Positions 25,262 to 48,477 of a stretch of DNA of 64,000 nt are shown piece by piece (the stretch's first letter is position 1; every line of letters starts with the position of its first letter). The stretch comes from a virus (lineage: Duplodnaviria > Caudoviricetes). Both the position numbers and the translations under genes were made by a program. Below the pieces are notes generated by a model that did no database searches, was not told the DNA's origin, and worked only from the letters and a program-made list of their open reading frames with translations. The DNA lies in IMG/VR virus record IMGVR_UViG_3300028888_000078, positions 39,415 through 103,414 of that record. One strand, 5' to 3'.

Positions 25262-27085
25262 TTATCCAATAGTAATTCCAAGTCTTTTTCTCTACGCCAA
25301 AGGAATACCGCCAATATACCTACGTATGTCATCATCCGATCCATATACAGGATCCGTTGGGTCATTGTACATTGGGTAATAACCTATTCCTCTAGTTGCC
25401 TAATTCTGCATCCAATTTGCATTACGTTTTCTCAAATCCATATCATCTCTATACAACGCCATAGTATCGTTAAATTGTCTACGCTTAAACTCATTAGCTT
25501 GATATTGCTGTATTTGACTAAGCATATTAGCTATACCTGTTTGTATACCTCTATTACGTGCAGCATGTGCTTTGCTATAGTAGTCAAGATCCCACTGATT
25601 AGCTGCCATTCTAGCCTGTCTAGATGCTTGTCCTGCATTAATAGCAGCCTGAGCATAGTTAGCTCTATAAGCATTATTCTGTTGCTGTATATTAGACAAA
25701 AGGTTAGATATGTTGTTCTGTGTAGTATTAAGATTAGCTAATCTAGCTGCTGTACGTTGACTACCACTCAATCCTCCTGCAATATCAATAGCTCTATTGG
25801 TTCTAGCTTCTGCATTACGTAGTTGTTGTGTAATAGGATAAGGATTAATTCTAAGCCCAGCAAGTGTAGTAAGACCTTGTAATTCGTACGGATTAGCAAC
25901 ATATGTATGCGGATAATATGGCGTACTGTTCTTAGCATCAATATATTGCGCGAGACTTGCTATACTTCCTAATGCCGAAGGTATCGCATTGCCCAACCAA
26001 CCTTCTGCACATTTCGGAAGCCTTCCGTTTTTATATGCAGGATTGCCAAACATCTTCATCATTTCCTCAGCACCTTCTATATCTCCAGTACGCCAAGCAT
26101 AATCAGAAAGTCCATGTTTGTTTGTAATAACAGTATCACTATCACTAAGAGAAGCAAGTTTCCCATCTTTGTTGTTCTTTAAGCCGGGAACTCTATACAT
26201 TGTACCTGTATATTTGTTAGCTATAACTTCTCCGTTAGATACACGTGCTGTAGCTTCTCCTAAAGCCTAACCGAACGATGTTGATACTTTTCCTATGTCA
26301 AATTTAGGAAGTTTTCCATTAGCATGACCGAATAACGATTGAGAATATTGATCGCCGTATTCTTCTGCATCATTTAATTGCAGGGCTGTACCTATTGCTC
26401 CATTGCGTTCAGCATTGTTTCTTGCATTCATATACAATGCAGCTTTGCGTTCATTTTCCTCTTGCTTATTTGCACTAAATATTTCTCCTAATCCACTTCC
26501 TATTAAACCAACCGCTCCACCGACAACAGCTCCCCATGGTCCTGCGACAGAACCCATTGCTGCGCCAGACGCAGTTGCACCAGCTACATTTCCTAGTGCA
26601 CCACCTTTGTATCCAGGCAGTTTACCGTCTTTTGCTTTTAACATTCTAGTCCATCCGATACCGGCTGTGGTAGCAGATGTGGGTTTATATTGAGCTTCTA
26701 TATCATTTACGCTATCGTAGTTTGTCCAACTGTTGTGTAAACTTCCAATTAATCCTGGTGCAGCAGACGCTGCTGTTTGTATATTACCAACGTTTATGCC
26801 TTTTGCTATCTTTTTTGTTTCTGTACTCTAATATGGAATATCTTTTCTTGATGCAAGTTGTCCGGCTGCACTCATTCCTGCAGTATCAAAGTTTCCACGT
26901 GTTGGTAAAATCGAAGTATCTACTGCCCCGGCTACATTTTTATTTCCAGAATTATATTGTTGTAGATTATCCATCCACTACATAATATTATTCTGATAAT
27001 CATCAGAAGATGTTAGTCCACCAGAAAACCCAGGTAATTGTCCGGTGTTGTTTATAAATTTATAATCTTTCTTTGTTAACTCCAT
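25262..27085 (-). CDS. Cargo protein 1-like ejection protein (~607 aa, TAG=Gln) with glycine-zipper hydrophobic segments
   Basis: ATG 27085 (MELTKKDYKF), TAA 25262; follows the muzzle gene; GALGNVAGATASGAAMGSVAGPWGAVVGGAVGLIGSGLG and A/Q/N-rich helical C-terminal half. Confidence 0.75.
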
Positions 27086-30000
27086 GACATTCTAAATTTC
27101 GTTGTTATATATTGCAATGAGAAGTCAGTGGAGTTGTAATCCGAAGCCATTTCACATTGCATTGTTTTTCCTCGCATTCTATTTCCGTACTCTATATTTG
27201 AGTCTTGTGAACCATTTCTAGGTATAGCCAATCTATAATCATATTCATCTACACTAGTAGACTTATCTCCACGTATAGCAGATTTCTATTTAAGCGGCGT
27301 TTCAAATGTAAACGTAAGATGATGCATTGGAGAATTTAAATGTTCGTCTTTGACATATTCTCCAGGAACTCTTTCCATCTACCAATTTGCTATGGTTTGT
27401 AAACTACCTTTATACATTCTACCACCAAATGTAAGATTGTCAAATGTTTTAGTGTATATGTTGTTCTTATTTACAACTATACGCACTTTAGGGAATGCAG
27501 GTTTGTCAAATAGATAAGTATAACCATCTTCATCTTGCTGATTCTGACGATATATTAAATTTTCTTTTGCAAGATACAAATCATTACCTATAGATGCTCT
27601 ATACTGCGGCATAAACGTATATATAGAAGAGAACGCTTGAATTTGTTCATTATACACTAACGTTTCGTCACTGACAACCTGTGCGAGTACTTCGTCATAT
27701 TTTGTATCGTATGCAAGTATAGGACGTTCAGATTCTTCTCTTTGGTTTATATAATTAGTAACACCTTTTATTTTAGTAAGTGGAACAAGTTCCATTCCAC
27801 CTCCATATGCAAGTATTTCTTTGTTATATCCATCCCACCAGTATTGTGTGCTATTTGATTGTATTTCTGCGTCATACTGATTAGGTTTCATTCCATATAC
27901 AGTAGATATATAGTCATACCTCTAAAGAGTTCCGCCTGTACCTACAACAATATCATTATTCTCAATATCGTTTAATACAGTACGTTCGTTTACACTAAGT
28001 ATACCAGTAGCATGTTCTTGCCAGAATAAAAGTTTATCTTTAAACAAACGCATGTTGGTTATTTGTCCAAATCTGCTATCTACGTCTATATAATTATTAT
28101 CATCAAACTTCAACCAGCTATCTATATGCTCATTGTTTGTTTTTGGATCAGAATGTTTAACTCTACAATCAAACGTGTCTGTATCTATTTTTGTGTATTC
28201 TATAGATACATATGGTACAGCAGTAGGATCTGAATTATATGATGTATTATACCTATATGCGGCTGTTGTTTGAGTGTATTCTTCTATTTTGTCAGCCTGG
28301 TCCTAGAACCAATATGGTTCAACGATATTTGATTCCAAATTTGGGATAAGATATCCAAATGTTCCAGATAAATCTATATCAGAATATAATGGTACGGATT
28401 GTATATTTGCCTAAGCAACAGCGTTTCCAAGTCCGCCTTCACACCATGCGTGAGAAGCATTATATATAAACACACCAGGAAAACAATCTCCATCGTATAT
28501 ATCGTAATCTTTTGTACCAGTGTCAACAGATATTACATTTCCATGAGATATATATTTTGAAGATTTTATAGTACTCTATCCTCCGTAAGGATTCAATACG
28601 TCTTTTTTTATTGATACTATATCCAATCCTATATTTGTAGCTGCGTTTTCGTAAAAGTTACCACCTGACGTTTTTTCAAAAATTATACATTCACCAGTAC
28701 TGCCAACAGGATATGTAAAACTTCCGTTTCTAGACTAAAACATAAGAGTATTAGTAATATACCCACTATCATGTTGTTCCCAATCCGGTTCAGGATCGTC
28801 CACTTTTGCTTTTATTCTATCCTATTTTAATTCTGACGCATCGTTTGAATCAATTTCATATGCTATGGGTATGATCCAATTAAGATAATCAAAACTTCCT
28901 TTTTCAGAAAACGATTCGGAACCATTAAACGTAGGAGGATTCATAGTACTATCGAATAAATCTCCCGCCTTTGGTACTATTGCGTAAGTAGTTTTATTTA
29001 CATCAACATTATTTATAGTACTTTCAACATTAAATGTTGTAACAAACTCAGAAGAACTCATATATACTTTTGGATTATAATTCTATCCCTGCTCTATCTC
29101 CCTTTTGTTTATGTATATATGGTAATAATCTTGATCAATACTATCATACGCAAGCCTTGCAAAATATGTAGCTATCCACGATGTATGTATATATGTAACT
29201 GTACCATTATCCCAATCTTCGTACGGTGGCTATGTGTTACCTTCCCCATTGTATCTAGCATACAGCCATTTATACAATTCGTTTATATCATTCGGTGTTT
29301 TATACACACAATACGGCACGCCGTAATCATACTATGTTCGTTTACTATAAATTCTACGCGCGTTTATCTAATACGGTTCATAGTTTCCATATTGCTAATA
29401 TTGATATGTTGCAGTATCTGCGACTCCATCAAGAGTTAAATAAAAATTTCCACTACTTAATATATCTTTAATATCGTCTTTCTGGTATACATATTCTGGC
29501 GAAGTAAATATCAGTTTGTTATTGTCGCTTACTGCAATTTTTGACTATATTCTCATAAACTTAGAACGCTATTCGTCATCCTATCTAATATTGCCTGTTA
29601 CAGCAAATCTATTTGTTGATATAAGTCCAGGCGAACATACAACTCCTTGATCCTGTACATATTCGTCAAATGCATCCTTATCCCAAATACGTAGTGGGTA
29701 TCCACCTATACCTTGTGTTATAGTCCTTCTATCTGATATTGTACGTTTACATCTTACAATTTCTATAGCTTTACAATCTGGGCATTCTTGTAATATTCCG
29801 TCCCAATTAACTTCAAATTTAATACCTATAAGTTTAAACTGATAGAAATTACTACTAGGATCATCATTATAATAATGTATAGAGTATACAGAATTATCTG
29901 ATATTTCATTCTACAGATCTATATCTGCTATATGTTTTACAGACGTGTGATTTCCATCACTGTCATACAACACAACACCATAGCGATATACTTCTCCGAG

Positions 30001-31125
30001 ACGCAACGATTTAAACTAATCTTTAACATTACCGCTAGTCATCGAATATCGCTTTTCGTTTCTGTTGCTTACATAGACGGGTTTGTTTGTTATCTACCAA
30101 GATATGTATTGTGCAACATCGATTTTGTCATACTTACTATCTATTTTACTTTGTACATCGTTTATATTTGCCTAAAATAGATAATCATTCTTTGACTCTA
30201 TTACTCTTGGTACCGTATTGAAATCTATATATGACAAAAACGTAGAATATGATACATTGTCATCCACGTCATTTTGTCCTGTATCAGTAAAGCTATTTAT
30301 ATACACGCCATCATATATAAGAGATACATGTGGATTAGAATCTTGTGATATATATGATATTCTAAATATCTAAAGATGATCTGATTCGTACGAGTTTGTT
30401 GGTATATTTATAACCACGGATTGGTTTATATTGTATACCAAATCTGCAGAGGCTTCATATCCTTTATTATATTCGCTGTATAACGTGAGTACTTTACTCA
30501 ATGGAGATAGTGTAGTAGTAGATCCACCAAGTTTGTATAATCTGTACGCATATTGTATTTTTGGGGCATTTAGATTTCCGCCACCTTGTTGTATTGTAAG
30601 TATAGGTTGTTCAAGAAAAGTATTTATTATACCTTGTATGGATTTATTTCCGATATGAGTTACATAATCTCCATTATCGTTCTTCTCTGTAATATTTACA
30701 TACATCAAAGGATGCTTAGCGTCAGCTATATATAATTTGACATTATTATCAGATTCCCATCTTGTAACAAGACTTAAATATGTTCCCCAACTATCACCAT
30801 CTTCGGATTCATATGTTATCCACCAATGACTAGGATTATCTGTATCATTTACTAATATATAACCTTTACCGCCATCTTCTGTAATAACAATTAACAAGTT
30901 ACGTATACTTGTCATTGCTTTTATTGTACCATACTGTTGTACGTACGCATACTAAGCAGTACCTTCTACCAGTCTAAGTTCTCCTGTATTTTCTTCTGTA
31001 TCTGTGGTTAATCTTACGTTTTCTGCATATCTATACTGACTACTATCCATTAAGGCATCTGATACGTCAGTATTCATGCCTTTAACAAAAGTATTTATTT
31101 GTTGTAAATCATTATTAATATCCAT
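27076..31125 (-). CDS. Tail muzzle / stabilization protein (~1349 aa, TAG=Gln)
   Basis: N-terminus MDINNDLQQINTFVKGMNTD..YRYAENVR and C-terminus YRLAIPR..YGNRMRGK typical of crAss muzzle proteins; fragments in one frame; TAA 27076. Confidence 0.85.
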
Positions 31126-32068
31126 AATAGTAGTCGTTGTATGTTATTTGTTCTCTGCCTATATTCTTAAAGAACGTATCATCACCATCCCAATCGGGTA
31201 CTAGTTTATTCCAATCGTTCTTTATATTCTGCATATCGTCTGCAGTAGGCATCATAGCTTCAGCATAAGCTTGATTTCTATAAAAGTTCCATTGAGACTA
31301 TGTATAGAAGTAAGTCTATTGTGCGTATTTTTGTGAATATTTAGAACTGCTTGTAGTAAGCTTACCAGACATAAACTTAGGGAATGTAAGCTTCATTACT
31401 ACATACCAGTATATAGCCTCCTAGTAAGAAGTAAGATCTGGTATCAATGGATAACCTCTTTCGTCTACTGCAATAGCTTTATATGAAAGTTTAATAAAGC
31501 CGTGTTTTTGATTTGTTACAATCCAACCCGGTTTAATAAAATACTCAGGCTTGTCTAACTTCCCATGCTTAAACATTCTATCCCAATACTTCATTGTGTT
31601 GATAGTATACAACTAATGCTAAGATGTTGGGAGTTTGTGCATCATTGGTTGATGATGTTCTGGCATACCTACAATCTCTTCTGTTACAGGAGGTTCAGGT
31701 ATAGCCATATTATATGGATCGTGATGGTAGACAAGGTTTCTATGAGGTGTTGGATGTGATTTGCGTTTAAATATTCCAGTCATAGTACTCATTGGCTTCC
31801 ACGGTCCTTCAGGATTCTAGGAATACGCAACACCATCGAGTACTTGTAAGTCCGCTGGGATGGGAACCTAATAGTCTTGTATCTTTAATATAGGTTCGCC
31901 GTCAGTCCCAGACTCTTTTGTGATATACTACATAGGAGCACCAATCTTGTCTACGGCTTCAAATATCCACTCTCTTATGTCTGTAGTACGCTACTTTATC
32001 TCTGTGGAATCTAAATCAGCCATAATCTTTGCAATGACTGATTCACACTTTGTATATTTGTATATCAT
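31115..32068 (-). CDS. Tail ring protein (R1-like, ~317 aa, TAG=Gln)
   Basis: MIYKYTKCESVIAKIMADLD..IREWIFEA..KLSYKAIAVDERGYPLIPD; directly upstream of the muzzle gene; TAA 31115. Confidence 0.75.
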
Positions 32069-32486
32069 TTATATCAATATAATCGTGTTTATTAAATATT
32101 AGTTGAGCTAATTTACGTTTATTCTATCTTACTAGGCTCAGCTAGTATTTATATCTATCTGGGAATGTCCTCGGGATCTTAGACCAGTATAATCTATATT
32201 TATATCCGTCAGAATGTTCATTCAAATGATAGATACGTTTATCATATTCTTTGCTGGCTTTATAGTCTACAGATAATGATTGTGCGGATAAACTCTTAGG
32301 TTTATACTTACCTACCTATATAAAACCAAGCCCAAAAGGCATTTTAAAGCCTTCTGAGCCTTCGAATATGTGTTCTAGAATAACTTTACACATTTCATCT
32401 AAAATGCGCTTGTAGAGGCTGTAATCCACCTCTACGGGCATTGTACGGTACATGTCCCTGAACGTGATGGATTGTTTACTCCTCAT
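32043..32486 (-). CDS. IHF/HU-like DNA-binding protein of crAss-like phages (~147 aa, TAG=Gln)
   Basis: FKMPFGLGFIQVGKYK..SVDYKASKEY..HLNEHSDGYKYRLYWSK; conserved position between ring genes; TGA 32043. Confidence 0.75.
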
Positions 32487-33195
32487 CGTCTTGTGGTCCA
32501 TGTGGTTTCACACTAGCTAAAGTAGCGTTGTTACTATCATCGCTAGGTCTATTCAGCATTACTGCCAATTCATTCTGGAAAATAAGCTTCTTGATATCAG
32601 GAACCATCCAGGTTGGGATTTGTACATCATCCTCATCTTCTGCGTCAGTATCGTCAGTGTCATCGTCTACTTCATATATGGCTTCTAAGTATATATACTA
32701 CAGTTGATCTTGATCTTGCAATCCTTGTATGTATATGTGTTTATCACCATTAAAATAACCGGTGATCTCTCCGAATGTATACTTGCGGAAATATTGATAG
32801 TGACGACGTATTGGATTCATATACTGAATATTCTCACCGCTCTCATCCCTTATTGCTATGATACTAGATGCTGTGTTTGAGAACAAACCGTCTATTTCGT
32901 CTACAGTACGTTTTGTGAAGCTGTCTCTATCTTCGTCTTTAGATTCTACTTTTTCTAATGCCAATGGGCCTATCTCTTTGATCTTAATAAACTCATCGTC
33001 TATCATATCAAGTAGATCCAGTACTTTTGCTTTCTCTTTAAGTTCATCAAGACGCTTCTTCCATAACATTCGCCTATAGTGATTTACCCAAGCACCAACC
33101 TACGCTCTAGAGAAGTCTTCGCTTTCGCTAATATTGTTGTTCCTGACCAAAAGAAGTATATCATCTATTATTTCTTTTAGGCTTGTTGTGTTCAT
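32476..33195 (-). CDS. Tail ring/tubular protein (R2-like, ~239 aa, TAG=Gln)
   Basis: MNTTSLKEIIDDILLLVRNNNISESEDFSRAQ...IPTWMVPDIKKLIF..PSDDSNNA; TAA 32476. Confidence 0.75.
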
Positions 33196-33851
33196 TTTGT
33201 TGTATTTTGTACCACTCTTACATCCGTTGTCTCAATTAAGTCGTTCGTATTCTTTATTTTATACGTTGTCTTATGTACTTTCTTAAAATCAAATGTAAGT
33301 AGTCGCTTTATAAAACTCTTCTTATTCTTATATTCTTTAGTATCAAATACATATAGATATTGCTCATTCCTAATATCTAAGCCTATACTAACTGTATCTT
33401 TACTAATACTATAAGTTACTGTTGTAAGGTCGTTGAAGTTTATTGTATCGTTGTATATACTATCTTTAATAGATATAATATCACCCCCTACCCCCTTACT
33501 TTCTATAACGTTTATAGACTGCGTTTGAGTTGCAGCAGTCTAAACTTGTTTTGGTTTAATACTTAACTTAGACCTAACGCTATCTAACTTATGCAATATA
33601 TCGTCGTTCTAAGCCGTTAATTGTTTTATATTTAGCCTTAAAACATTATTAGCCTACTAGGAGTCGGCAACCAACCCCTAATAGGCTTCAATGTTGTTCT
33701 GAGCCATTTCTAGCTCCTGTGACAGCTTTATATTCTGTCTGTGGGTATTTATACCCCACGCCAGTAATAACGCAACAGAAGCCACGCAAATGGCCTTAAT
33801 GGCGCTTCTTCCGTGGTTTATGACCCACGGTATGATCGTCAGTATGTTCAT
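33192..33851 (-). CDS. Putative spanin (Rz-like, ~219 aa, 5 in-frame TAG); absent from ORF track
   Basis: N-terminal hydrophobic helix AIKAICVASVALLLAWGI followed by coiled coil; overlaps the holin end; TGA 33192 overlaps next ATG. Confidence 0.6.
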
Positions 33852-34335
33852 CTTCGTTTAATTCTATTCCTGTATAATCCTCGCCCTTTTTCTTAAGGAA
33901 TTTACCTAAAAGCTTCCAAGGGCCATTAGGATCTACAGTATTCAGATTCTCTAATATAGACCACATTTCGGTCAGCGTAATAATGATTGTAGCACCTCCA
34001 GTAAGCACAAATACACCAGATTCATCCATCACAGCCCATTCTAAGCCGTGTGCCAAACATATTATTGTAAATTCATCAATAAGTTTTCTTAGCGTACCTG
34101 ACCAATTCTTACCACTTTCTATCTTCTATTTAAACTTCCTAGCCACCCTAAATCCGCATATCATATCAACGATAGTGGCGGCGAAGCATATCATCAACAA
34201 ATACTATATTGGGGTCAAAAACGCAGTTATGGCTGAAGTCAACCCTATTACCCATTTACCAATTATACTGCCTTGTGTTATACTATTTACTGCAGTACCT
34301 ATGTGCTATAGTGTTTGTGACAAGTGTTTAATCAT
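33796..34335 (-). CDS. Holin, Phage_holin_4_1-like (~179 aa, 3 in-frame TAG)
   Basis: Several hydrophobic segments; VDMICGFRVA..IES..LRK and EMWSILENL patterns; charged C-tail; TAATG overlap with upstream gene. Confidence 0.8.
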
Positions 34336-35969
34336 TATGCAATTGTAAATGCTATATCGGCATATTCAGGAGAAGAGTTTCCGCTTCTCACGCTTTGATC
34401 AGATATTATTTGACGCAATCTAAATCTATGAGTACCTTGCGAACATCCAGTAAAGTCTATAGTAAACGTTCCGCTAGATATATCAACTCCGCTGCTCGGT
34501 GTGATAGTTGTTCCACTTATAACATAACTATTTTCTATAGAACCTTCACCTATAGACACATTGAAAGGCACATTTGTGCTTCCATCTGAAGATTGCACAT
34601 TTACAACAACTGTTGCGTTCTATGGAGTTGTTATAGCATTAAACGTACGTACTTTACTTGCACCAACACCTTGCCATACAAAGTCTGCTAGTTGTTGATT
34701 ATTTATAGAATATTGATTAGGATAGAATACGGGACATATTCCGTTTTCTTCTGGTTGTATTATATCAACAGATACTCGATCGATTCCTTGGTAATAGTAG
34801 TTTATTATAGCAACCGTCGCACACCGACTAATGGTTTTTTCTGCAACTGTTGATACAGAATCAATATCTGCAGCAATAATATTCATATTTCCGCACGATT
34901 TAAAACTTGTTTTTCCACATAAAGCAGAATTTCCTCCATCTGCGCTTGCAAAAACGTCTACGGTATAACTATTTCTTATAGGAACGGGTATTTTTCTACT
35001 TTCACTTCCAATACCTTGCCAAGTTCCATAAACCATAAACGAAATACCACCTTCGCCAGGATTATAACCAGAATTTATCAAATTTCTTATCTTTGCGATG
35101 TCAATTTCTACTTTAGACCCAGAAGTCACAACACTAGAAGCGAGAGTTTTTACAGTATCGGGATCATCATCTCTCATGCCCATTACAGTATTATTTGCAA
35201 AAATAATACTAGTCATGTCCTACTAACTGCACTGTGTGGCAAGATTTGTGTATGTCATATTTTCCACAGTGGTAGATGTAGCGGTCAGGGTAAGTTTATT
35301 TATATTATCATATGTAACTCTACTAGTAGAGCTATCTGCTTGATAAAAAAGAATTCTTGTTTTTTCACATACAGTATTACAAATAGAAACACCCTATTGT
35401 TCAGCAGCTTGTCTTATAGTAGCCATTTCCTCAGTATTAGTATTCGGAGAAGCTATTACCGTTACATAAGCCTATCTATTTGAACTGCTAGCATCTGCAT
35501 ATACCTCTATTCCTTCATCCCACAAATACCCGTTGTTTCCGTGACACGAGGTATTGCTTTTGCGAAGTATATGTAGCCAATCAAGTCCTTCAGAGCTTTT
35601 TCCATTCCACCAATCAGAACTTCCATCCTATTCAAATCCTTCAAACGTATAGTTATATCCAGCCAAATACGAGTCTCCGCTATGATTTCCATTTAACGGA
35701 AGCCTCATACGACTACTATCGCACGGATATGTGCATACAATACTATAACCGCTTTGTTCAATAGGCCATACAGGAACAAGTCTGCTATTTGGGAATGATT
35801 GTCCTGGATTAGCACTTTCAAATTGTTCCATCATATTTTCGTCGGTTCCGTTGCGCAATGCAACTGTTTTTGACACACATCTTTCGGGCGGTATTTCTGC
35901 ACTAATGAGAAGAGAGTTCATTCCGGGATCTCCTGTAGGCGTATCGCCGTAAGTTACCATTCTTAACAT
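34335..35969 (-). CDS. Beta-rich putative virion adhesin/structural protein with BACON-like segment (~544 aa, TAG=Gln)
   Basis: Three fragments in frame; DWLHI...IEVYADASSSNRQAYVTVIA..TIRQAA resembles BACON; TAA 34335. Confidence 0.6.
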
Positions 35970-35970
35970 A

Positions 35971-36378
35971 TTACTATATTATTATTTTACATCCTTCTTT
36001 AGAAAGACATCCTTTCTTAATCAAAGGGTAAAGTTTATTTACTGTAGCTCTAGAGTTTAATACCATTCCTTTTTGTTTGTTCTCTCCGACTATAATACAA
36101 CCAAGACTATCTTTGGCAGTATTACCGGAGTGTATTCGTATACCTGCAAAATGCGGTACATCTTCTAATAGAGGCATATATTTCTTAAACTTAGGAGAAT
36201 ATGTCCAGCTTACTTTATATGTCCCATACGGAATAGCTGTCTCTCCATATACTTTCTTTTCTTTGTCTAAGTTGCGCACTTTATCTTCTATTGTGTCGCA
36301 TCGATATACGCCATCTATGTAAAGTTTACCTATTGTGTAAGTATCTCTAAGAGCAATTCTCTTCAATAATAACGTCAT
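35971..36378 (-). CDS. DUF5675-family protein (L,D-transpeptidase-like), candidate endolysin (~135 aa)
   Basis: LLLKRI..YTIGKLYIDG..CDTIED..TAIPYGTYKV..GIRIHSGN..SLGCIIVG; ends TAG-TAA. Confidence 0.8.
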
Positions 36379-39692: not shown

Positions 39693-39769
39693 ATTATATT
39701 AATTAATTTATTCTACTCCCCCTATATTTCAATGTCTAGACCTAACTAGCTGGGGTTTCCACGTTTAAA

Positions 39770-40459: not shown

Positions 40460-41276
40460 TATCGTTATTCTGTTGTCTAGCTTGCTGCCTCATTGCCTCC
40501 TACTGTCTACGCCTGTTTGCTTCTGCACCAGATACATACTGGATATAAAGTTCAAGTGCACCAGTAACAATGTCATCAAAACAATCTAAAGGAAGTTCGC
40601 ATGCAGTAGAAGTCATAAGATCAAAATGATCAGGTTCTTTGTAGTATAATATCTCTATACCAAGAGGTTCAGTATACTGATCATATATTACAGTAAGACT
40701 TTGCCCTTCTTTCTGTCCTGTTGTATCAGCAACGGTATTACTCAACACTGCAGCAGGTCTACGTAATATTCTAAGTGTATCATGAGGAGTTTCTATTAAA
40801 GTCCAGGCATCGGACTGTGATACCAACTCGTTCGGCAAAACTCTGATAGAGCTGTTATTATTTGCTTTATCAGATCTAAAACTAAACGTTTTAGTGACTT
40901 TTGATACACTTCTGACATACATGTAAAATAAAGGATCTAATGGATATACTATAGATCTACCGGTATTCATAACTTCAATACCATTTGGATCAATGAGATT
41001 GCTTGTGGCGTTTATTACGCCGGGATCCGTAACCGGTATCCAGTCACGCTTTAACAGCGATTGTAGTACACTTTCTACGTGAGCAGAGATCTTAGAACCA
41101 GATGGAATAGCATCAAGGCTACGATAAATATCGTGTATATATTTGTCTTGATATTGATTGAGGAACGAGTAGATCGTCTCAGTATCAAGCTTCTCTAATA
41201 ATTCCTTCTCAGGAATCATGGTTTGAACTCGTCTTTCGAATTCAATACCCATTTGTCTTGTTTCATCTAACGTCAT
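40446..41276 (-). CDS. Tail ring protein (~276 aa)
   Basis: MGIEFERR..IYSFLNQYQDKYI..YYKEP..CELP..DIVTGALELY; TGA 40446. Confidence 0.75.
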
Positions 41277-42055
41277 GCTTCAAGCCCTCTCATATTAAGT
41301 TTACTATTTAATCTAGCAGATTCTACATTCTCAAGAGCAAACGCTACAGCAAGGCTTACAAGTTCTTCCGCCATTGTACTATTACATTCAAACTGATATG
41401 CTTCTGGTAAATTTCCAGAGCCATTCCAATCGAAATACGATGCGTAATTTGCACTAGAGTATTGATTCAAATCTTTTACAAACGTATTTGGTATTTTGAT
41501 ATAAACAACTTCAACCTACTCGACCGTTGGCTTGTTTATAGGATCGTATACAACGTGAAGTTTTTTATCCTCTATATAACATACAGGATCTTTTACCCAA
41601 GGAATATTGTGAGGACTTGCAAAAAATTTAGTAGCCATGTCATGACTTACTAATTTTATTTGTAGACTTCTTGTATCTTCTCCATCCGCCGGGTCATAAG
41701 ACTCTTCTGTGCTATCTGGCAGTCTTGTTATTGTGTCCTATTTCATATATGCTGTAACATAATACAGCATAGATTCCGGAAGTGCTCCTTCTACTGAGTT
41801 AGAAACACGATTGTCTGCTGACATATCTATGGTTTCGTGCCGTACAAGAGGTTCAAGGTCTGCTATAGATTTTACATCTGATTCAAACACAGAGCGTCTA
41901 TAGTTATTCCCTGTTATTTTCTATGCAATCAGTGCGTTGTAAGCTTTATCAAGAACGGTAGCTATTTCGTATTCTGTTAACGATGGATATGACGAAGTAA
42001 CATTTGCCTTGTCATATTCTATCACGAACTTAGTATATATGTCTTTATGCGTCAT
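41273..42055 (-). CDS. Tail ring protein (~260 aa, TAG=Gln)
   Basis: MTHKDIYTKFVIEYDKA..EIATVLDKAY..AEELVSLAVAFALENVES; TGA 41273. Confidence 0.75.
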
Positions 42056-42073
42056 ATCACATGTTTATTAGAG

Positions 42074-42826
42074 TTATTTATTCTCTGTTTCGTTTATAAT
42101 CGAAAGCTTAAGGTCTTGATTCTTCTTACTATCCAAATATGCAATAGCATCATCAAGCGAGTCTGCAAACATATCAGAACCGTAGAAGTAGTGTGTCTTA
42201 TCTTTACGAATTACACCCTTAGCAATAGCGTTCTCAAGTAAGAACTCTGTCTCCTTAAACTTATTATTAACCCACTTGTCCATGAACTTCTTAGGTTGTT
42301 TATCGACGATGCCAAACAATGTAGACTCTACGAGTTCATTAGACATACGATCAGGATTAGCACCAAACAGACGCAGACACTTACGCATTTGCTCAAGCGA
42401 CAATGTATCAAACTGCTTAATGGCATCGCGACGAAGCTTGTTCTGCTTGTTCTGCTCAATTGCCTCGGCTTCACGATTAATCAACAGATAGTCTTTACCA
42501 GCGTCAAGCTTATCGAGTGTAGTAGCAACACGCTTATGACCTTCCAAGAATTTGATCATCATAGCTTGACGAGGAATAGAATCGTCAAGCAGTAAACCAC
42601 GTGCACCAACTTTTACAGAGAATGTATTCCAGAACTCTGATGTTTTAGCAAGATGTCCTTCAGGATAACCCAAAGCTTTCTCATAATATTTCTCATCTTC
42701 TGGGGTGAGACCCGTATAAATCGACCCGGAACGTGTAAAGTACGGAGCAATATAATCAAAACAATTCCTATACTTTATAAAAGATCCCCAGGGATTCTTC
42801 TTCTTAATCTTTAATTCAACTACCAT
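42074..42826 (-). CDS. Conserved crAss protein downstream of MCP (~250 aa, no TAG)
   Basis: Likely start MVVELKIKKKNPW (the longer track start runs through a hairpin); TGLTPEDE..FW..AIAKGVIRK..YFYG pattern. Confidence 0.75.
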   Translation of the reverse strand: MVVELKIKKKNPWGSFIKYRNCFDYIAPYFTRSGSIYTGLTPEDEKYYEKALGYPEGHLAKTSEFWNTFSVKVGARGLLLDDSIPRQAMMIKFLEGHKRVATTLDKLDAGKDYLLINREAEAIEQNKQNKLRRDAIKQFDTLSLEQMRKCLRLFGANPDRMSNELVESTLFGIVDKQPKKFMDKWVNNKFKETEFLLENAIAKGVIRKDKTHYFYGSDMFADSLDDAIAYLDSKKNQDLKLSIINETENK

Positions 42827-42849
42827 AATTATAATAATTAGTATGTTGT

Positions 42850-42884
42850 GATGCCGGGCGGGGGCCGAAGCCCCCTCGGACATC
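42850..42884 (-). promoter_or_regulatory. Stable C(UUCG)G hairpin downstream of MCP
   Basis: Minus strand GATGTCCGAGGGGGC-TTCG-GCCCCCGCCCGGCATC; no U tract follows. Confidence 0.65.
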
Positions 42885-42901
42885 AGTATTTCTTATTGAT
42901 A

Positions 42902-44425
42902 TTACGCACCAATATTAATGCCACCGTCGTTGCAGATCTCAGTATCTTCTGCATCGCAGTACAGAATACCACAGTTCAGCGGGTTGCGAACCATGATACC
43001 TTCCTCACCAAGGAAGTGAACCTGGTAACCATCACGGCTGTTAGAACGCAGCGTGTTGATGCTGTTTGCATAACCCTGAGGTGATACAGAACCACCAGTG
43101 TACCACTGTACGAACTCACGACCCTTACGACAAACCTTAACAACATTAGCCTGGCCGTCGAAGTTGCTGATGTTGACGAACAGGAACGTGTAAGACATCA
43201 GGGGCTTACCAGTCAGCGGATGGAGCTGACGGAACATCTCCATATTGTCGAACAGAGGACAACGCTTCAGAGACAGCGTGATACCATTTGTCATGTTGTA
43301 GGTAGTAAACTGACCACCGAGAGTCAGGTTCTGACCACTACCGGTAACGAAGATATTCTCACACATATTGAAGCTAGCAACCTTCTCCTTCAGAATACGG
43401 TCGAACTCACGAATACCCATCTCACCAGTCAGAGCAACGAAACGACGCTCGTTGGTACCCAGAATGTCGTAGCAGAGGTCGAAGAGATAGTCCTCGAACA
43501 GCTCAGCGGTCAAGTGATGATAGTAACGAATGTTAGCCGGGCTAATCTGCTCGAACAAACCACTCATCGTAGGTGCGGGTCTGCCGTTTGTCCCTTTATT
43601 AAGATAAGTACCATCAGCCAGACGGTTGCTCTTAGAGAACAACAGCTGATACTCCTCACGCTTCTTCCACTCACGGAGTGCTAGCCAGTACTGATAATCG
43701 GCCCACAGATAGCTCTTCTTACCGGTCTCGGGATCCTGCAGAGCAATAGCCAGAACAGTTGAATATGCGTCACCAGTAATATCATAAGTCAGACGGAGAG
43801 TCTGCAGATGGCCACGCATCTTAAACGGAGTCTGATAGTTGATGATATCTGCCTCATCACTGTACTCCTCGTAAGCAGAACCCAAACGGCTTACCTGACG
43901 ACCAGGAAGCAGGAACTCACCGGGGATGTAAGCAGCCTGTGCTCCATCAACAACATATACCTCATATACCCAAGCGCTACCATCCTGATAAGGAACACCG
44001 TTTACACGAACCTGGAACTTATAATCGTCAAATGACAGAATTGCACCAGGGCCGAACCAGCGCTCTTCGAGAGCGAGGTAAATAGGAGTACCATTCAGAC
44101 CAGGAGTCTCAGAAATGTAGTTAGCGGAAGTAATCTCCTTACCGTTCCACTTAGCCCAGCGAATGTTAATAGCGTGCTCACTGTCAACATGTACAGCCCA
44201 CTCAAACTCGCGGTTGTCAATAATCATTGTCTTGCCAAGACCACCGGTGAGCAGGTCGATGGTAGTAGAAACACCGTCGTCTTTTGTACCAAATACCAGT
44301 GAAAGCAGACCAGACACCTCATGAGGTCTAGTCAGCAGGGCGTTAGAAATCATGTTTTCATCTACCAGGTCCGAGAAACGACGTCCACGGTACAGCTGGA
44401 GATTGTTAAGTAAAGTATTATTCAT
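42902..44425 (-). CDS. Major capsid protein (507 aa, no TAG)
   Basis: MNNTLLNNLQLYRGRRFSDLVD..FEWAV..GLFEQI..TGEMGIREFD..LGGQFTTY..HPLTGKPLMSY; strongly biased codons; position after scaffold-like gene. Confidence 0.9.
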   Translation of the reverse strand: MNNTLLNNLQLYRGRRFSDLVDENMISNALLTRPHEVSGLLSLVFGTKDDGVSTTIDLLTGGLGKTMIIDNREFEWAVHVDSEHAINIRWAKWNGKEITSANYISETPGLNGTPIYLALEERWFGPGAILSFDDYKFQVRVNGVPYQDGSAWVYEVYVVDGAQAAYIPGEFLLPGRQVSRLGSAYEEYSDEADIINYQTPFKMRGHLQTLRLTYDITGDAYSTVLAIALQDPETGKKSYLWADYQYWLALREWKKREEYQLLFSKSNRLADGTYLNKGTNGRPAPTMSGLFEQISPANIRYYHHLTAELFEDYLFDLCYDILGTNERRFVALTGEMGIREFDRILKEKVASFNMCENIFVTGSGQNLTLGGQFTTYNMTNGITLSLKRCPLFDNMEMFRQLHPLTGKPLMSYTFLFVNISNFDGQANVVKVCRKGREFVQWYTGGSVSPQGYANSINTLRSNSRDGYQVHFLGEEGIMVRNPLNCGILYCDAEDTEICNDGGINIGA

Positions 44426-44447
44426 ATATATTTATAATTCTTGTGCG

Positions 44448-45629
44448 TCAGAACATACCACCTATAAGGTCGGTTACTGACTTCTGTTTATCATCGGCAT
44501 TATAAGTGCTATGATTCTTTGCACTATGCCTCAACATTTTCCTAAGTTTTTCAGCAGCGGATGTTTCTCCTGCCTTCGTCGCGTTATTGATTAAAGTATC
44601 AGCTTTCATCGTAAAATACGCAGACTCAATAAGGTTCTTTGATAGATTCTTATTAAAGTCTTTAGTATACTGCGATTGGCCGTTCTGATCCACTTTGAAA
44701 ATGTAATCGAACAAAGCTTGACGATCTTCCTTAGGAATAGCGATGCCGCGAATATTAGTAAGCGATTTGATGTCGTTACTTACTGTGTTAAAGAATTGTC
44801 TTGATTGTTCTTCCTATTGTCGTGCAAATTCTTCCTATTGTCGTTTAGCTTCTTCAACCTCAGCCTGCCTAAGCTGCTTCAATCTATCTAAAGCATCCTC
44901 AGATTCCTCATACAGCATGTCACCATCTTCATAGCGTTCAATCTTTTTATTAATCTGCTCGTTGGTGTAACCATTACGCTGCATGAGTTCACGTATAACT
45001 GCCTTTTGATTATTCTCGTCTTCGAGGTTGATGTCCTCAAGAGTAATAGCTGCTTGCTGTTTCTCATAGAAGTCCTCAAACTTACCACCATTCTTTACAT
45101 ACTCATCGAGCTTCTGTATACGCTCGTCTGCATATTGTGGTACAGAGTTCTCTTGTACAACATCACGCATGTATTCGGTCAGTTGATCTACAGTAAGAGG
45201 TCTACTCTTTTCATCAATCTCATCCATATTCCACCCAAGTGAATTACCAAGGGCATCAAAGAACAGCCCTACTTGTTCAGCTTCTATCACATCTGCATCT
45301 GTAGGTTCGTTATTATTTGGATCCTCTACAGGTGGTTCTGTTATAGGTGGTTCAGGATTAGTTACGCTAGGAGGGATTGGAGAATCGTCATCCTTTGCGT
45401 TTGGATCCGGTTTATCCGGATCGTCTACATTGCCGTCCTCAGGATCTTTCTTCACTGGCGGCTCATTCTTAATTGGTTCATCGATTGGATCGTCATCATC
45501 GTTGGGATTAACAAAGTAACCTCTATCATCAGTTAATTGTGTAACCTCTTCTTGGCCTTCAGCATTAGAATAAATGCTTCCAAGAACATCTTCAAATCCG
45601 CTCGGAATTGTATTCTTTTTCTTTGCCAT
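44448..45629 (-). CDS. Acidic scaffold-like/head assembly protein (~393 aa, 2 TAG)
   Basis: D/E/P-rich N-terminal half and helical C-terminal half; directly upstream of MCP; TGA 44448. Confidence 0.7.
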
Positions 45630-45666
45630 ATTATAATATGTAAGTTAATTTGTACAGTTTATTCTG

Positions 45667-45975
45667 TTATTTTTGTATTTCTAAACTGGGAATGGTTTTT
45701 GGTGTACCGTCTTCGTTTAATTCTCCATGAATCATTTTGTATGCAATATTTTCAGTATGAATTAAACCATCTTCATCCGTATAATCTTCATATTTAAAGT
45801 TATCGGGATACTGTTGAATCCAAAACTATACATCTGGAAATCTCTTTTCAATTTCCTTAAACACTCTTGCGAATTCATATACACTACCTTCAGTTTGTTC
45901 TGTAAGATCATAACTGAGTCTGTGAACTTTGCCATCTGTACATTTAATGGCAGTATGTACTATATAACTATTCAT
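45667..45975 (-). CDS. Hypothetical protein (~102 aa, 1 TAG)
   Basis: MNSYIVHTAIKCTDGKVHRL...SLEIQK; fills the intergenic gap only under code 15. Confidence 0.6.
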
Positions 45976-45984
45976 AATTAAATA

Positions 45985-48477
45985 TTAATGTTTCCACTTT
46001 TTTGCGTTCTAAGCAAATATAGCTCTCTTACGCGTTAAAGGATTTTTACTATGTGTTAATTCTTCTGTTGTTTTACCAGTACGCTTTTTAGTAGCATTAA
46101 ATTTACCACGATTGGCTGGTTTAATTCTTATTTTGCCGTCTTTGTATTCTGGAAGTTTTCCATCACTAAATGGAATCAGTGGGCCTAATATAGGATGTTT
46201 CTGTATCTTTGTATACATGTTTGCTATTGGATCTAAGAATATATCATATAAAAATCCCATCGGATTATCAGAATATCCCCAATTCCTTGCCATTCTATCT
46301 GCATCCTACATCTTCCATGCTCTAGACGCGCCACGAGTCTATTCGTTAGCTTCACGCCAACGTTTGTACATCTCTGCTTTCTCCTTAAGGCGTCTCTCTG
46401 CCAACTAATCTCCAACAAGTCTAACGGCTTTCATTCCTACAAGCATGGACATTAATGGGTCTTCTCCGCTCATGCCCTGTTCGTGAGAAGCATTCTGAGC
46501 CGCCTATTTTACTTCTTCGTCAGTAAGCTATCTCTGTTCTCCCATAGGAAGTTCTCCTTCGAAATATCCAGGAAGTTTGCCATTCCTATATCGTTTATCT
46601 TGTGGAACCATCATTGCTCCTCCAGCAACTGCAGGCACTTTTAAAAGCATATCTTTGAAGTTGTTGTAGAAGTGTGCTTGTTCTGGAGTGAGAGGCATTA
46701 CATCAGGCATTCCGAGATGTTTAATACGTTGCTCACTAGCATCTCTATTGTATACACTAAGTTTAGACGCCATATCCTCTATCTCTGCAGGTGTTATACG
46801 ATTTACCACATCTTCAAAATCTTTTCCGACAGGGAATCCGTAACGCTTTCCAATCGCATATTCAAGTTCACTGAGCATTGCTCCACCTTCATTGACAAAG
46901 TTAAAATCAGGATGTTCTTTTATGAACTTCTCACTAAATGGGAACATGCGTTCCATTATCATAGCCTACTCTGGGGTATAATTATAATACTGTTGCAGAT
47001 AATGTTTGAACTCATGTGGAACAGCGATATCCATCAACCGATCGTTGTTTACAATCTTGTTGCTGAACAACATTCCTTCCGGCCCATACAGAGCATTTAT
47101 ATTTGTATTTTCTGGAAAATCTGCGCTATTAAGAACAGGCTCTTCGGATGGGAGTTTTGTCTTATTATACTTCTGAGTCTTTTGATCAGTGATCTTCTAA
47201 GTATATTCAGTTTGCTGTTTATACTTCTTTGGATCTATCCTAGTTTTAGGTTTGCTAACAAGATCTTCTGATACTTCTTGAGCGTTTAGCATCTTCTTAG
47301 TAGAAGCCTTCGTTGGGTTTATTGCCTTCTTTACAGCCTTTTTGGTATTCTTGATTAATTCTTTTGAAGAATCTTTTGTAATTTTCCCTCCAGCACCTGT
47401 AAGTATATCCAGCAAAACGTTTGCATGATCTGTTATATCTGCAATACCTCTTACCTCTTTATTCCAACTTTCAAACTACTACTATAGCCCTCTCGCCACA
47501 TTTCCCAAACCACCTTCTACAAACTACTAAAAGAATGGTTTATTATAATCTCTCCAAGTAGAATTTGCATAACTACTTAATGGCGACCAACGGTGCCCCT
47601 GCTATATTGTACCTTGATTTTGTACAATGATATCTTCTATCTACTATGGTGTAAGTCCGTTTTGATATCTTGGCAACTTACCATCAGCATATGCGTTTTT
47701 AAATCTATCCCACGTAGGAGTATATTCCTCTATAGTATCTACTAATTTTTGTATACTTAGAGGTTTAGCCATTTCGAAGTTCTATACAAACGTATGACTT
47801 GGAAGTTCTGTAGCCTACTACATCCACGTAGAAGGCACTGTCTATTGCTGTATAGTAGGAATAGTAGATACTCTAGTAGCATCTGGTACTGCTATAATTG
47901 GCTCGGGTTTTGTCTCTGGAATAATGAAACCTCCGAGTACAGGGTCTGAAAATAGTAACTACTGCTCCTTCATTCTACGTGTACGAAGTCCTGGATTTGC
48001 AGAGTCGTTCCATCCTGCGTCTACTTCTTTTATAGCTTTTGCATACTGTCCAGACCTCCAATATTTCATAAACTTGGTATCATCTTCAAATCCGGAAGGA
48101 TAATTATAATGATACGACGTGAGAGCTTTCTTACTGTCGTTAGATAAAGAATCCCACACTGCAGGACCAAGTTTCTTTCTAAGTTTTGCCTATCTAAATG
48201 CGATTTGTCTTTTTAACTCAGCATCCGCTTCAGCCTTTGTTATTCTTCCTTTGTTTACAAATTTAGCATCCGTAAAACCGTATCCAATAGTGGGTATCCC
48301 CTTTCCATCTAGATATGTTTTATCTCTAAACCCTTCATACTGTTTAAGAAAATCGGCGGTGTCTTCAATAGTACTTTTACCTCCAGCATACCCAGGCAAT
48401 CCATAGATCTCTCGTACAGATTTACCTTCTTTATACGCTTTAAAGCGCTCTCTAAATTTACTTGGATCTCTATACAT
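45985..48477 (-). CDS. Modular putative virion protein (~830 aa, TAG=Gln): GH24 lysozyme + zincin + basic C-terminal domain
   Basis: Five fragments in frame; EGFRDKTYLDGKGIPTIGYG (E-x8-D-x5-T), GLRTRRMKE, HEFKH (47002-47016), C-terminus IRIKPANRGKF..RKRAIFAQNAKKWKH. Confidence 0.8.

What the first reader, a model, noticed from the sequence alone, without database searches (positions are those of the whole stretch)
25262..48477. A shared GKLP peptide motif delimits domains in two putative cargo proteins: candidate processing or capsid-loading signal
Seen, under code 15: the 830-aa protein (45985-48477) has YGLPGYAGG (48379-48402, just before the lysozyme), AYADGKLPRYQNG (47656-47694, after the lysozyme linker), YRNGKLPGYFEG (46555-46590, after the zincin) and FSDGKLPEYKDGK (46132-46170, before the C-terminal domain). 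The cargo-1-like protein 19 kb away (25262-27085) has TGQLPGFSGG (27017-27043), KAKDGKLPGYKGG (26600-26638), HANGKLPKFDIG (26291-26326), YKNGRLPKCAEG (26000-26035) and a degenerate NKDGKLASL. Consensus (D/N)G(K/R/Q)LPx(Y/F/C)xxG. The DNA copies differ, so conservation is at peptide level, and I did not notice the motif in capsid, ring or fibre proteins. Inference: these are bead-on-string polyproteins in which the motif is a maturation-protease site or a docking tag for packaging into the head, and possibly a junction for swapping effector domains. I do not know a description of this motif, but cannot exclude one.
Basis: partly seen in the sequence, partly recalled or inferred. Interest (0 to 1): 0.85.

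Follow-up and report, generated by a model that had tools for sequence, protein, structure and literature searches.

The report
Junction tag in crassvirus cargo proteins
A 12-residue peptide tag (core G-K-L-P) sits in front of each domain of two modular internal proteins of a gut crass-like phage; relatives swap, lose or split off domains at these tags, but what reads the tag is still unknown.

Summary

**Occurrence.** Under TAG=Gln, the core G-[KRQ]-L-P-x-[YFC] occurs 7 times in the 103-kb genome's real genes. All 7 lie in two proteins:
- the portal-adjacent lysozyme/HExxH protein ("family A", 45985-48477);
- the C1-position protein ("family B", 25262-27085).

About 0.5 copies are expected by chance. 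The copies use different codons.

**Conservation.** The motif is kept in 111 of 120 C1 homologues, down to 32% identity. A profile search of 1.84 billion proteins found essentially only these two crassvirus families.

**Position.** All eight copies lie in low-confidence coil, 0-4 residues before the next structured element in seven of eight cases.

**Shuffling.** Relatives exchange GH24 for GH73 and swap HExxH domains. Breakpoints fall at the motifs, both in DNA and in 47% of internal protein HSP ends (7% at random). Stand-alone 61-115-aa module genes keep a related tag at their N-terminus.

**Other lineages.** crAss001 C1 carries an analogous A-[FY]-G-G motif, 4 of 5 genome copies, bracketing the segments resolved by cryo-EM.

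**Verdict.** Bead-on-string architecture and junction swapping are supported. Protease site versus docking tag stays unresolved; I slightly favour a positioning tag. The motif appears undescribed: a new variant of polyvalent, modular phage cargo.

The parts
45985..48477 (-). Family A gene (P0001, 830 aa, 22 in-frame TAG=Gln): modular protein between the portal and scaffold/MCP genes
   Evidence: portal = 48628-51117 (PHROG portal, E 2e-161), MCP = 42902-44425 (Pfam Crass_capsid)
48403..48477 (-). Conserved N-terminal 'address' peptide of family A (aa 1-25, predicted helical)
   Evidence: Near-invariant in alignment A2; also present in 98-aa minimal family members in the same genomic slot
48376..48411 (-). 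Motif copy 1 of family A (aa 23-34; G-L-P-G-Y-x-G-G-K variant). It abuts the start of the lysozyme domain
   Evidence: the GH24 fold aligns from residue 33-34
47932..48372 (-). GH24 lysozyme domain (aa 36-182)
   Evidence: Pfam PF00959, E 1.7e-16; VIA Z 16.7, rmsd 2.3, 140 aligned residues; pLDDT 82-92
47656..47691 (-). Motif copy 2 of family A (aa 263-274), in low-confidence coil
   Evidence: G266 and K267 are invariant in A2
46633..47295 (-). HExxH (putative zincin) domain, aa ~395-615, with HExxH at aa 488
   Evidence: AF2 pLDDT 70-88; HExxH; homologous slot in P0003 and P0013 hits Pfam Peptidase_M48 at 22-24 bits. The fold itself was not confirmed
46555..46590 (-). Motif copy 3 of family A (aa 630-641). 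DNA identity to locus L006 resumes exactly here
46171..46554 (-). Helical segment E (aa 642-769). It is identical in L006, replaced by a ~450-aa domain in L007, and absent in L008
46135..46170 (-). Motif copy 4 of family A (aa 770-781), directly before the basic C-module
45988..46131 (-). Basic C-terminal module (aa 783-830). It is highly conserved across Crassvirales and also present in crAss001 C1 (gp45 residues 373-424)
25262..27085 (-). Family B gene (P0002, 607 aa): protein in the C1 position, directly downstream of the muzzle gene (27076-31125) and upstream of a 608-aa gene and the 5574-aa RNAP gene
27017..27052 (-). Motif copy 1 of family B (aa 12-23; N-T-G-Q-L-P-G-F variant)
26600..26635 (-). 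Motif copy 2 of family B (aa 151-162), directly before the Gly-rich hydrophobic segment
26471..26599 (-). Gly-rich hydrophobic (transmembrane-like) segment, aa 163-205, homologous to crAss001 gp45 ~131-160
   Evidence: Profile A3 versus PDB 7qog_M, E 5.9e-7; hhalign E 2.6e-5
26291..26326 (-). Motif copy 3 of family B (aa 254-265), directly before a beta-rich domain
   Evidence: G257 is invariant in A3
26048..26290 (-). Beta-rich plus two-helix domain (aa 266-346, pLDDT 81-89). It contains the degenerate N-K-D-G-K-L-A copy (26147-26173), which is part of the fold and not a junction
26000..26035 (-). Motif copy 4 of family B (aa 351-362), found in register in 78 of 82 aligned homologues
25385..25996 (-). 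C-terminal long-helix domain (aa 364-567), the most conserved part of family B

Best explanation
**Shown.** The G-K-L-P motif, consensus [YFA]-K-[ND]-G-K-L-P-[GK]-[YF]-x-[NDE]-G, is a strongly selected short linear peptide. It leads each independently folding module of two families of modular proteins in one large clade of TAG-recoded crass-like phages.
- Family A lies in the portal-to-scaffold slot. It has a constant N-terminal address peptide and a constant basic C-module, with payload domains between them: a peptidoglycan hydrolase, an HExxH domain and others.
- Family B is the C1-position protein next to the muzzle gene.
- The unit of evolution is tag plus downstream module. Modules are exchanged, inserted, deleted, duplicated or split into separate genes at the tags.

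**Inferred.**
- Both proteins are packaged internal (ejection) proteins.
- The tag is read by a phage-encoded partner inside the particle. That partner positions each bead of the first-out cargo along the portal and tail lumen, or loads it through the scaffold or portal.
- Cleavage at the tag is possible but not required.
- In sister lineages the same role is played by other short motifs: A-[FY]-G-G in crAss001 C1 and [LIM]-P-x-Y-K-x-G-G in Boorivirinae-like phages.
For: **Restriction and enrichment**
- The motif occurs in two proteins only, with about 0.5 core copies expected by chance.
- Peptide-level selection: codons vary. The motif's G, K, L and P are among the few invariant or near-invariant columns of both family alignments. 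111 of 120 C1 homologues keep it.
- Exclusivity: a profile search of 1.84 billion proteins returned 51 clusters. All but two unrelated repeat proteins have family A/B sizes or motif contexts. All 13 TAG-recoded IMG/VR hits belong to family A or B.

**Tag leads the module**
- All eight copies lie in pLDDT<50 coil, and seven of eight end 0-4 residues before the next structured element.
- Stand-alone 61-115-aa module genes keep a related tag with only 10-50 residues upstream.
- A 98-aa minimal protein (address, tag, module) occupies the same portal-to-MCP slot.

**Shuffling**
- DNA homology to L006 ends at aa 34 and resumes at aa 630, both at motifs.
- 47% of internal high-identity HSP ends lie within 5 aa of a motif, against 7% at random.
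- Payload domains seen in relatives: GH24, GH73, PF18013, YkuD, HD, LysM and M48-like.

**Link to a proven cargo**
- The basic C-module is in crAss001 gp45, next to its portal-bound domain.
- gp45 carries 4 of the 5 A-[FY]-G-G copies in its genome. These bracket the cryo-EM-resolved segments 214-245 and 425-552 (PMC10172136).

**Against family A being the endolysin**
- A separate holin plus DUF5675 cassette exists at 33796-36378.
Against: - No binding partner was identified, and multimer modelling could not be run.
- Other presumed cargo, the 5574-aa RNAP protein and the C2-position protein, lack the motif. It cannot be the general loading signal.
- Virion location of family A is inferred only from gene position and shared modules.
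- P0002 lacks the crAss_CARG1 portal-binding domain.
- The equivalence of G-K-L-P with A-[FY]-G-G is positional. It rests on one direct interchange at a homologous junction and is not demonstrated otherwise.
- HSP ends are not independent events, and the motif's own conservation helps HSPs stop there.
- Four or five docking tags per chain is unusual.
Confidence: 0.45

Rival explanations
1. Maturation or processing site. The motif is cut by a phage protease, either one of the HExxH domains or an unrecognised enzyme. The bead-on-string chains would then be polyproteins that release lysozyme, HExxH domain, membrane segment and basic module as separate products, before or after ejection.
For: - The copies are short, conserved and multi-copy in exposed linkers directly before domains. 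This is the layout of viral polyprotein sites.
- In cr1_1 the same slot is split into separate genes: a small HExxH ORF, an address-bearing ORF and a 71-aa module ORF. The modules can therefore work as separate polypeptides.
- The modules are expected to act in different compartments.
- Zincin autoprocessing has been proposed for polyvalent proteins (PMC5512222) and for crass RNAP polyproteins.
- Cleavage would also explain why crAss001 gp45 pieces are seen both in the tail and in the capsid.
Against: - Only 16 of 32 motif-bearing family-A proteins have HExxH.
- Family B has no protease domain.
- The RNAP polyprotein, which has its own HExxH, lacks the motif.
- Stand-alone module genes keep the tag although nothing needs releasing.
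- The crAss001 model of the portal-bound domain starts at A425, the first residue of an A-F-G-G copy. That copy is ordered and not cut after G-G.
- The crAss001 papers read here report no cleavage.
Confidence: 0.25
2. Passive bead separator or threading leader. The Gly/Pro/Asn-rich turn motif only keeps beads apart and gives an unstructured leader, so that each bead can enter the narrow portal and tail channel in turn. This is the role proposed for the beads-on-a-string N4 vRNAP. No specific partner is involved.
For: - Predicted coil with three consecutive turn-formers (N-G, P-G, N-G).
- The tag precedes each bead, which fits N-to-C ejection.
- The N4 precedent (PMC13434306).
Against: - Flexibility does not need invariant K, L and P, or aromatic residues at fixed positions, kept down to 32% identity.
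- The long linkers around the motif are not conserved.
- Other ejected proteins of the same phage lack the motif.
Confidence: 0.12
3. Host-directed short linear motif. The tag binds a periplasmic or envelope protein of the Prevotella/Bacteroidales host, as colicin TolB and TonB boxes do, to help ejected proteins cross the envelope.
For: - The format matches: short conserved epitopes in disordered Gly-rich regions of proteins that must act in the periplasm or membrane.
- Motif variants are lineage-specific.
Against: No host partner is known, nothing was testable here, and the motif is also kept before domains with no obvious envelope role.
Confidence: 0.08
4. Family A is not packaged. It is the phage's (second) endolysin or lysis accessory, so the shared motif has nothing to do with the capsid.
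For: - GH24 domain.
- Many in-frame TAG codons, as reported for lysis genes of recoded phages (discussion quoted).
Against: - The gene sits between portal and scaffold/MCP.
- A holin plus DUF5675 cassette lies elsewhere.
- The C-module is shared with the virion cargo gp45 of crAss001.
- A 98-aa minimal member in the same slot has no enzyme at all.
Confidence: 0.1

Closest known systems
crAss001 cargo protein 1 (gp45; PDB 7QOG and related entries; Bayfield et al. 2023)
   Same: - Gene position after the muzzle gene.
- A Gly-rich hydrophobic N-terminal segment.
- An extended multi-segment chain whose pieces dock at different places (tail barrel and portal).
- It carries the same basic module as P0001, and its own repeated junction motif (A-[FY]-G-G).
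   Different: - P0002 has no detectable CARG1 portal-binding domain.
- Its junction motif is G-K-L-P instead of A-[FY]-G-G.
- In this lineage the basic module sits in the portal-adjacent protein, not in C1.
- Repeated junction motifs were not described in the paper.
Polyvalent proteins of phages and conjugative elements (Iyer, Burroughs, Anand, de Souza, Aravind 2017)
   Same: Several unrelated enzymatic or effector domains in one polypeptide. These include peptidoglycan hydrolases and zincin-like peptidases, are predicted to be packaged and delivered with the DNA, and form mosaic architectures.
   Different: That work describes no conserved inter-domain peptide (the word 'linker' does not occur). 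Here every module is preceded by a stereotyped 12-residue tag, between a fixed N-terminal address and a fixed C-terminal module.
Junction motifs of polymorphic toxins (VENN in CdiA, the DPxGL region of Rhs, PT-domains; Zhang et al. 2012)
   Same: A constant trafficking part, variable payload domains exchanged between close relatives, and a short conserved motif that marks the swap point.
   Different: - Several junctions per protein rather than one.
- The context is a phage virion rather than a secretion system.
- No adjacent immunity gene was noticed.
- The DNA of the motif is not conserved, so the motif is not simply a recombination substrate.
T4 capsid-targeting sequence with a prohead-protease site (internal proteins IPI-III, Alt)
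   Same: A short N-terminal peptide, shared by several internal proteins, that precedes the functional domain.
   Different: In T4 there is one tag per protein, cleavage by gp21 is proven, and the tag is used by all internal proteins. Here there are up to five copies per chain, only two protein families carry them, and neither a protease nor cleavage is shown.
Beads-on-a-string model of N4 vRNAP ejection (Nat Commun 2026, PMC13434306)
   Same: Ejected cargo organised as small globular units joined by flexible linkers, so that it can pass a narrow channel.
   Different: No conserved linker motif is reported for N4. Here the linkers carry a sequence-specific tag.

Membership tests
Crassvirus cargo protein 1 (gp45-like) | Gene directly downstream of the muzzle gene and upstream of the C2/RNAP genes | tested here: met
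   The muzzle gene is 27076-31125 (Pfam crAss_MUZ, E 5e-146). P0002 follows at 25262-27085, then a 608-aa ORF and the 5574-aa RNAP ORF.
Crassvirus cargo protein 1 (gp45-like) | N-terminal Gly-rich hydrophobic segment homologous to gp45 | tested here: met
   Profile A3 versus 7qog_M, E 5.9e-7; hhalign A3 versus the Steigviridae C1 alignment, E 2.6e-5, 48 columns.
Crassvirus cargo protein 1 (gp45-like) | crAss_CARG1 (PF25725) portal-binding domain | tested here: not met
   No Pfam hit for P0002 at E<=0.01. hhalign aligns only the Gly-rich segment. Foldseek found nothing at E<=0.001. I therefore call it 'protein in the C1 position' and do not file it as a full C1 member.
Crassvirus cargo protein 1 (gp45-like) | Physically present inside virions | not testable with these tools
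   This needs virion proteomics or cryo-EM of a member of this lineage.
Polyvalent phage proteins | Two or more unrelated effector or enzymatic domains in one phage-encoded polypeptide, with mosaic architectures among relatives | tested here: met
   GH24 plus HExxH domain plus basic module in P0001. Relatives carry GH73, PF18013, YkuD, HD, LysM and M48-like domains.
Polyvalent phage proteins | Zincin-like metallopeptidase domain | tested here: inconclusive
   HExxH at aa 488 lies in a confidently folded domain. Homologues hit Peptidase_M48 just above the cut-off. P0001 itself has no Pfam or PDB match there, and the lysozyme dominated the fold searches.
Polymorphic-toxin-like modular effectors | Constant N-terminal part, variable downstream domains swapped between close relatives at a conserved junction motif | tested here: met
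   The N-terminal 34 aa are near-identical while the next domain is GH24 or GH73. DNA breakpoints fall at aa 34 and aa 630, and HSP ends are enriched at motifs.
Polymorphic-toxin-like modular effectors | Cognate immunity gene next to the variable domain | not tested
   The 102-aa ORF downstream (45667-45975) has no family hit. Whether it co-varies with the payload was not examined.
T4-type capsid-targeting sequence with protease site | Cleavage at the tag by a prohead protease | not testable with these tools
   No prohead protease was recognised among the proteins scanned. Cleavage needs mass spectrometry.
GH24 phage lysozyme | Sequence and fold of T4/P22-type lysozyme | tested here: met
   PF00959, E 1.7e-16; VIA Z 16.7 to 9kbs_A, rmsd 2.3, 140 aligned residues.

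The most novel reading that the evidence does not exclude
The tags are a portable address-and-processing code for the crassvirus particle. Each tag both loads its downstream bead into the portal and tail lumen and is later cut, so C1 and family A would be polyproteins whose pieces end up in different places. This would revise the crAss001 picture of one gp45 chain spanning capsid and tail. It would also give a plug-in tag for packaging foreign proteins into phages of the most abundant gut virus order.
Probability: 0.2. Interest if true: 0.8.

Novelty: new variant of a known kind. Interest (0 to 1): 0.62.

Why it matters
How the most abundant human gut phages load and eject their large protein cargo is an open question; the 2023 crAss001 atlas and the 2026 N4 study both say so.

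A sequence-specific tag in front of every cargo module turns that question into experiments: mutate the tag, look for neo-termini, fish for its partner, or fuse it to a reporter.

It also shows that the slot between portal and scaffold holds a cassette-like carrier. That carrier ranges from 98 aa to more than 1300 aa, and its payload domains are exchanged between phages. This is a likely arena of phage-host arms races in Prevotella and Bacteroides.

Finally, it suggests that different crassvirus lineages use different junction motifs for the same job, which gives a handle for co-variation analysis with portal and ring proteins.

Tried and rejected
1. **Zincin co-occurrence.** HExxH is present in only 16 of 32 motif-bearing family-A proteins, so the data give no support for obligatory cis autoprocessing.
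2. **Motif as a general Suoliviridae feature.** Rejected. cr131_1, cr272_1, cr7_1, cr118_1 and IAS virus have no G-K-L-P-x-[YF] and only background levels of the loose [LIVM]-P-x-[YF]-x-x-G.
3. **Motif as a DNA repeat or recombination signal.** Rejected by codon diversity.
4. **Homology of the P0002 beta domain to CARG1.** Not detected.
5. **Fold searches of the whole P0001 model.** They returned only lysozymes, so the HExxH domain fold stays unconfirmed.
7. **Literature.** No paper in the searchable library contains the motif strings in a phage context. The polyvalent-protein paper does not discuss linkers. The crAss001 gel-band assignments for gp45 were not recoverable from the text or supplements.
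8. **Two non-crass hits in the profile search.** Both are tandem-repeat proteins with a chance resemblance. A 26-locus marine viral family has one in-domain copy of K-N-G-K-L-P-G-Y and is unrelated.


Full report
**What the window is.** All long ORFs lie on the minus strand and are open only with TAG read as Gln. Marker genes place the phage in Crassvirales, nearest Suoliviridae. The MCP hits Pfam Crass_capsid and is 77-83% identical to cr272_1, cr7_1 and cr131_1. Muzzle, ring protein 2, portal and TerL are also recognised.

The gene order, read 5' to 3' on the minus strand, is:
- TerL (51121-53163);
- portal (48628-51117);
- the 830-aa protein P0001 (45985-48477);
- a 102-aa and a 393-aa ORF;
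- MCP (42902-44425), followed by further structural genes;
- muzzle (27076-31125);
- the 607-aa protein P0002 (25262-27085);
- a 608-aa ORF;
- a 5574-aa RNAP ORF.

P0002 therefore sits where crAss001 has cargo protein 1 (gp45). P0001 sits in the classical 'minor head or injected protein' slot after the portal.

**Check of the observation.** Every quoted peptide is present at the quoted place.
- The strict pattern occurs 6 times and the G-[KRQ]-L-P core 7 times in 20,844 residues of window proteome. All copies are in these two proteins, against expectations of 0.00045 and 0.52.
- A six-frame scan of the complete 103,414-bp genome adds only one flank-less chance hit.
- The DNA copies average 49% identity and use different synonymous codons, so the peptide is what is conserved.

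**Where the motif sits in the proteins.** AlphaFold2 models built on family alignments give three confident domains for P0001:
- a GH24 lysozyme at residues 36-182, confirmed by Pfam and by VIA (Z 16.7);
- an HExxH domain at residues ~395-615;
- a C-terminal module at residues 785-828.

All four motif copies lie in segments with pLDDT below 50.

In P0002 the four copies also lie in low-confidence coil. They fall between a short N-terminal helix, a beta hairpin, a Gly-rich hydrophobic segment, a long helix, a beta-rich domain and a C-terminal helical domain.

In seven of eight cases the motif ends 0-4 residues before the next structured element. The distance to the preceding element varies from 0 to about 80 residues. 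The tag therefore belongs to the module that follows it.

**Conservation.**
- Of 120 database homologues of P0002, 111 carry one to five copies at equivalent positions, down to 32% identity.
- The last copy is in register in 78 of 82 aligned sequences.
- The motif's G, K, L and P are among the few invariant or near-invariant columns of both family alignments.
- Position counts over 64 and 197 distinct instances give the same consensus in both families: [YFA]-K-[ND]-G-K-L-P-[GK]-[YF]-x-[NDE]-G.

**Exclusivity.**
- A profile of 19 motif windows, searched against 1.84 billion representative proteins, found only 51 clusters at E<=0.001. Apart from two unrelated tandem-repeat proteins, they have the sizes and motif contexts of the two crassvirus families.
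- A back-translated DNA pattern found 39 loci in IMG/VR. Thirteen are TAG-recoded crass-like contigs, and all 13 hits are in family A or B. The other 26 belong to an unrelated family with a single in-domain copy.
- The motif is not a general Suoliviridae trait. Four reference genomes and IAS virus lack it.

**Domain swapping.** Four relatives of P0001 share the N-terminal 34 residues and a version of the C-module (diverged in L007) but differ in between:
- L006 has a GH73 glucosaminidase and an M48-like HExxH domain;
- L007 has an extra ~450-residue domain;
- L008 lacks segment E.

At DNA level, homology between the window and L006 runs from upstream of the gene to codon 34, the end of copy 1. 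It then vanishes and resumes at codon 630, the start of copy 3, at 97% identity to the end. With L008 it resumes at codon 780, just after copy 4. One breakpoint, at codon 210, lies in a linker and not at a motif.

Across 33 family-A proteins, 47% of internal ends of high-identity HSPs lie within 5 residues of a motif, against 7% for random positions. In family B the figures are 22% and 8%. These ends are not independent events, and the motif's own conservation contributes. The effect is still large.

**The constant parts.** The basic C-module is extraordinarily conserved. It is 72-93% identical between crassvirus families, in more than 4000 database proteins.

In Steigviridae and related phages the module sits inside C1. 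In crAss001 gp45 it is residues 373-424, immediately before the portal-bound domain. The two families therefore share modules as well as tags.

Many genomes encode the module as a stand-alone protein of 61-115 residues, one of them on 739 contigs. These proteins nearly always keep a related tag, [LIM]-P-x-Y-K-x-G-G or G-K-L-P, directly before the module, with only a short peptide upstream. In cr1_1 the split is genuine: there is a TAA stop and a frame change.

A 98-residue protein consisting only of address, tag and module occupies the same portal-to-MCP slot. Family A is thus a carrier with fixed ends into which tagged payload modules are inserted.

**Generalisation to the solved virion.** crAss001 gp45 has no G-K-L-P junctions, but it has A-[FY]-G-G at residues 207, 333, 425 and 559, plus looser copies. 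The corresponding DNA pattern occurs five times in that genome, four of them in gp45.

The segments resolved by cryo-EM are 214-245 on the tail barrel and 425-552 on the portal (PMC10172136). Both are bracketed by these motifs, and the portal-bound model starts exactly at the A of one copy.

At one homologous junction of family A, Y-A-G-G-K and Y-A-[DN]-G-K-L-P replace each other. Repeated junction motifs therefore look like a general, lineage-variable property of crassvirus cargo. This is inference from position, not a demonstrated equivalence.

**Mechanism.**
- Shown: a selected peptide tag precedes each module of two modular proteins and marks where modules are exchanged.
- Inferred: both proteins are packaged, and the tag is read by a partner.
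- I favour a positioning or loading tag for first-out cargo in the portal and tail lumen (0.45). The tag is kept on stand-alone modules, it is independent of the fold that follows, it is confined to the two families most likely to lie in or near the channel, and the crAss001 analogue is ordered at the portal.
- A protease site (0.25) is favoured by polyprotein logic and by gene fission. It is weakened by the patchy presence of HExxH, by the motif-free RNAP polyprotein, and by the tag on stand-alone modules.
- A passive hinge (0.12), a host-binding motif (0.08) and the orthogonal idea that family A is an endolysin (0.1) are less likely. The endolysin idea is countered by the holin and DUF5675 cassette.

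**Comparison and novelty.** The architecture fits the polyvalent-protein concept (PMC5512222), and the beads-on-a-string idea is now published for N4 (PMC13434306). The junction logic resembles VENN-type motifs of polymorphic toxins. None of these describes this tag, and full-text searches for the motif strings found nothing relevant. I rate it a new variant of a known kind.

Noticed in passing
window 45988-46131 (-); also L067:388-2916 (crAss001 gp45 residues 373-424): The ~50-residue basic module is more conserved across crassvirus families (72-93% identity) than the major capsid protein. It occurs in more than 4000 database proteins: at the C-terminus, internally, duplicated, or as stand-alone 61-115-aa genes, one of them on 739 contigs. 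Some records annotate it as 'transcriptional regulator'. Its function is unknown.
   Followed up: partly
L067:388-2916 (crAss001 gp45): A-[FY]-G-G occurs 4 times in gp45 and only once elsewhere in the 102,679-bp genome. The copies bracket the two cryo-EM-resolved segments. The N-terminus of gp45 also carries a G-K-M-P copy.
   Followed up: partly
L068:2224-3701 (cr1_1) and L069:5001-5297: The portal-to-scaffold slot is highly plastic. In cr1_1 it holds four small genes: an HExxH ORF, a GIY-YIG-like ORF, an address-bearing ORF and a 71-aa module ORF. In another contig it holds a 98-aa minimal protein. Homing-endonuclease-like genes are interspersed.
   Followed up: partly
L010, L012-L017 and 19 further IMG/VR loci: An unrelated family of ~740-aa proteins, not TAG-recoded and apparently from non-gut environmental samples (not checked), carries a single conserved K-N-G-K-L-P-G-Y inside a longer conserved block. 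This is a coincidence of sequence and was not identified further.
   Followed up: no
window 33796-34335 and 35971-36378 (-): A holin (Pfam Phage_holin_4_1) and a DUF5675 protein form a lysis cassette inside the structural block, next to ring protein 2 (32476-33195).
   Followed up: partly
window 434-6694, 6706-23430, 45985-48477, 60740-61144 (-): Four proteins carry HExxH: the 2086-aa, 5574-aa, 830-aa and 134-aa proteins. Which of them, if any, are active peptidases was not examined.
   Followed up: no
window 26147-26173 (-): An N-K-D-G-K-L-A stretch resembling the tag is a conserved strand-turn of the beta-rich domain of P0002. It may be a fossil of a tag absorbed into a fold, or a coincidence.
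   Followed up: no
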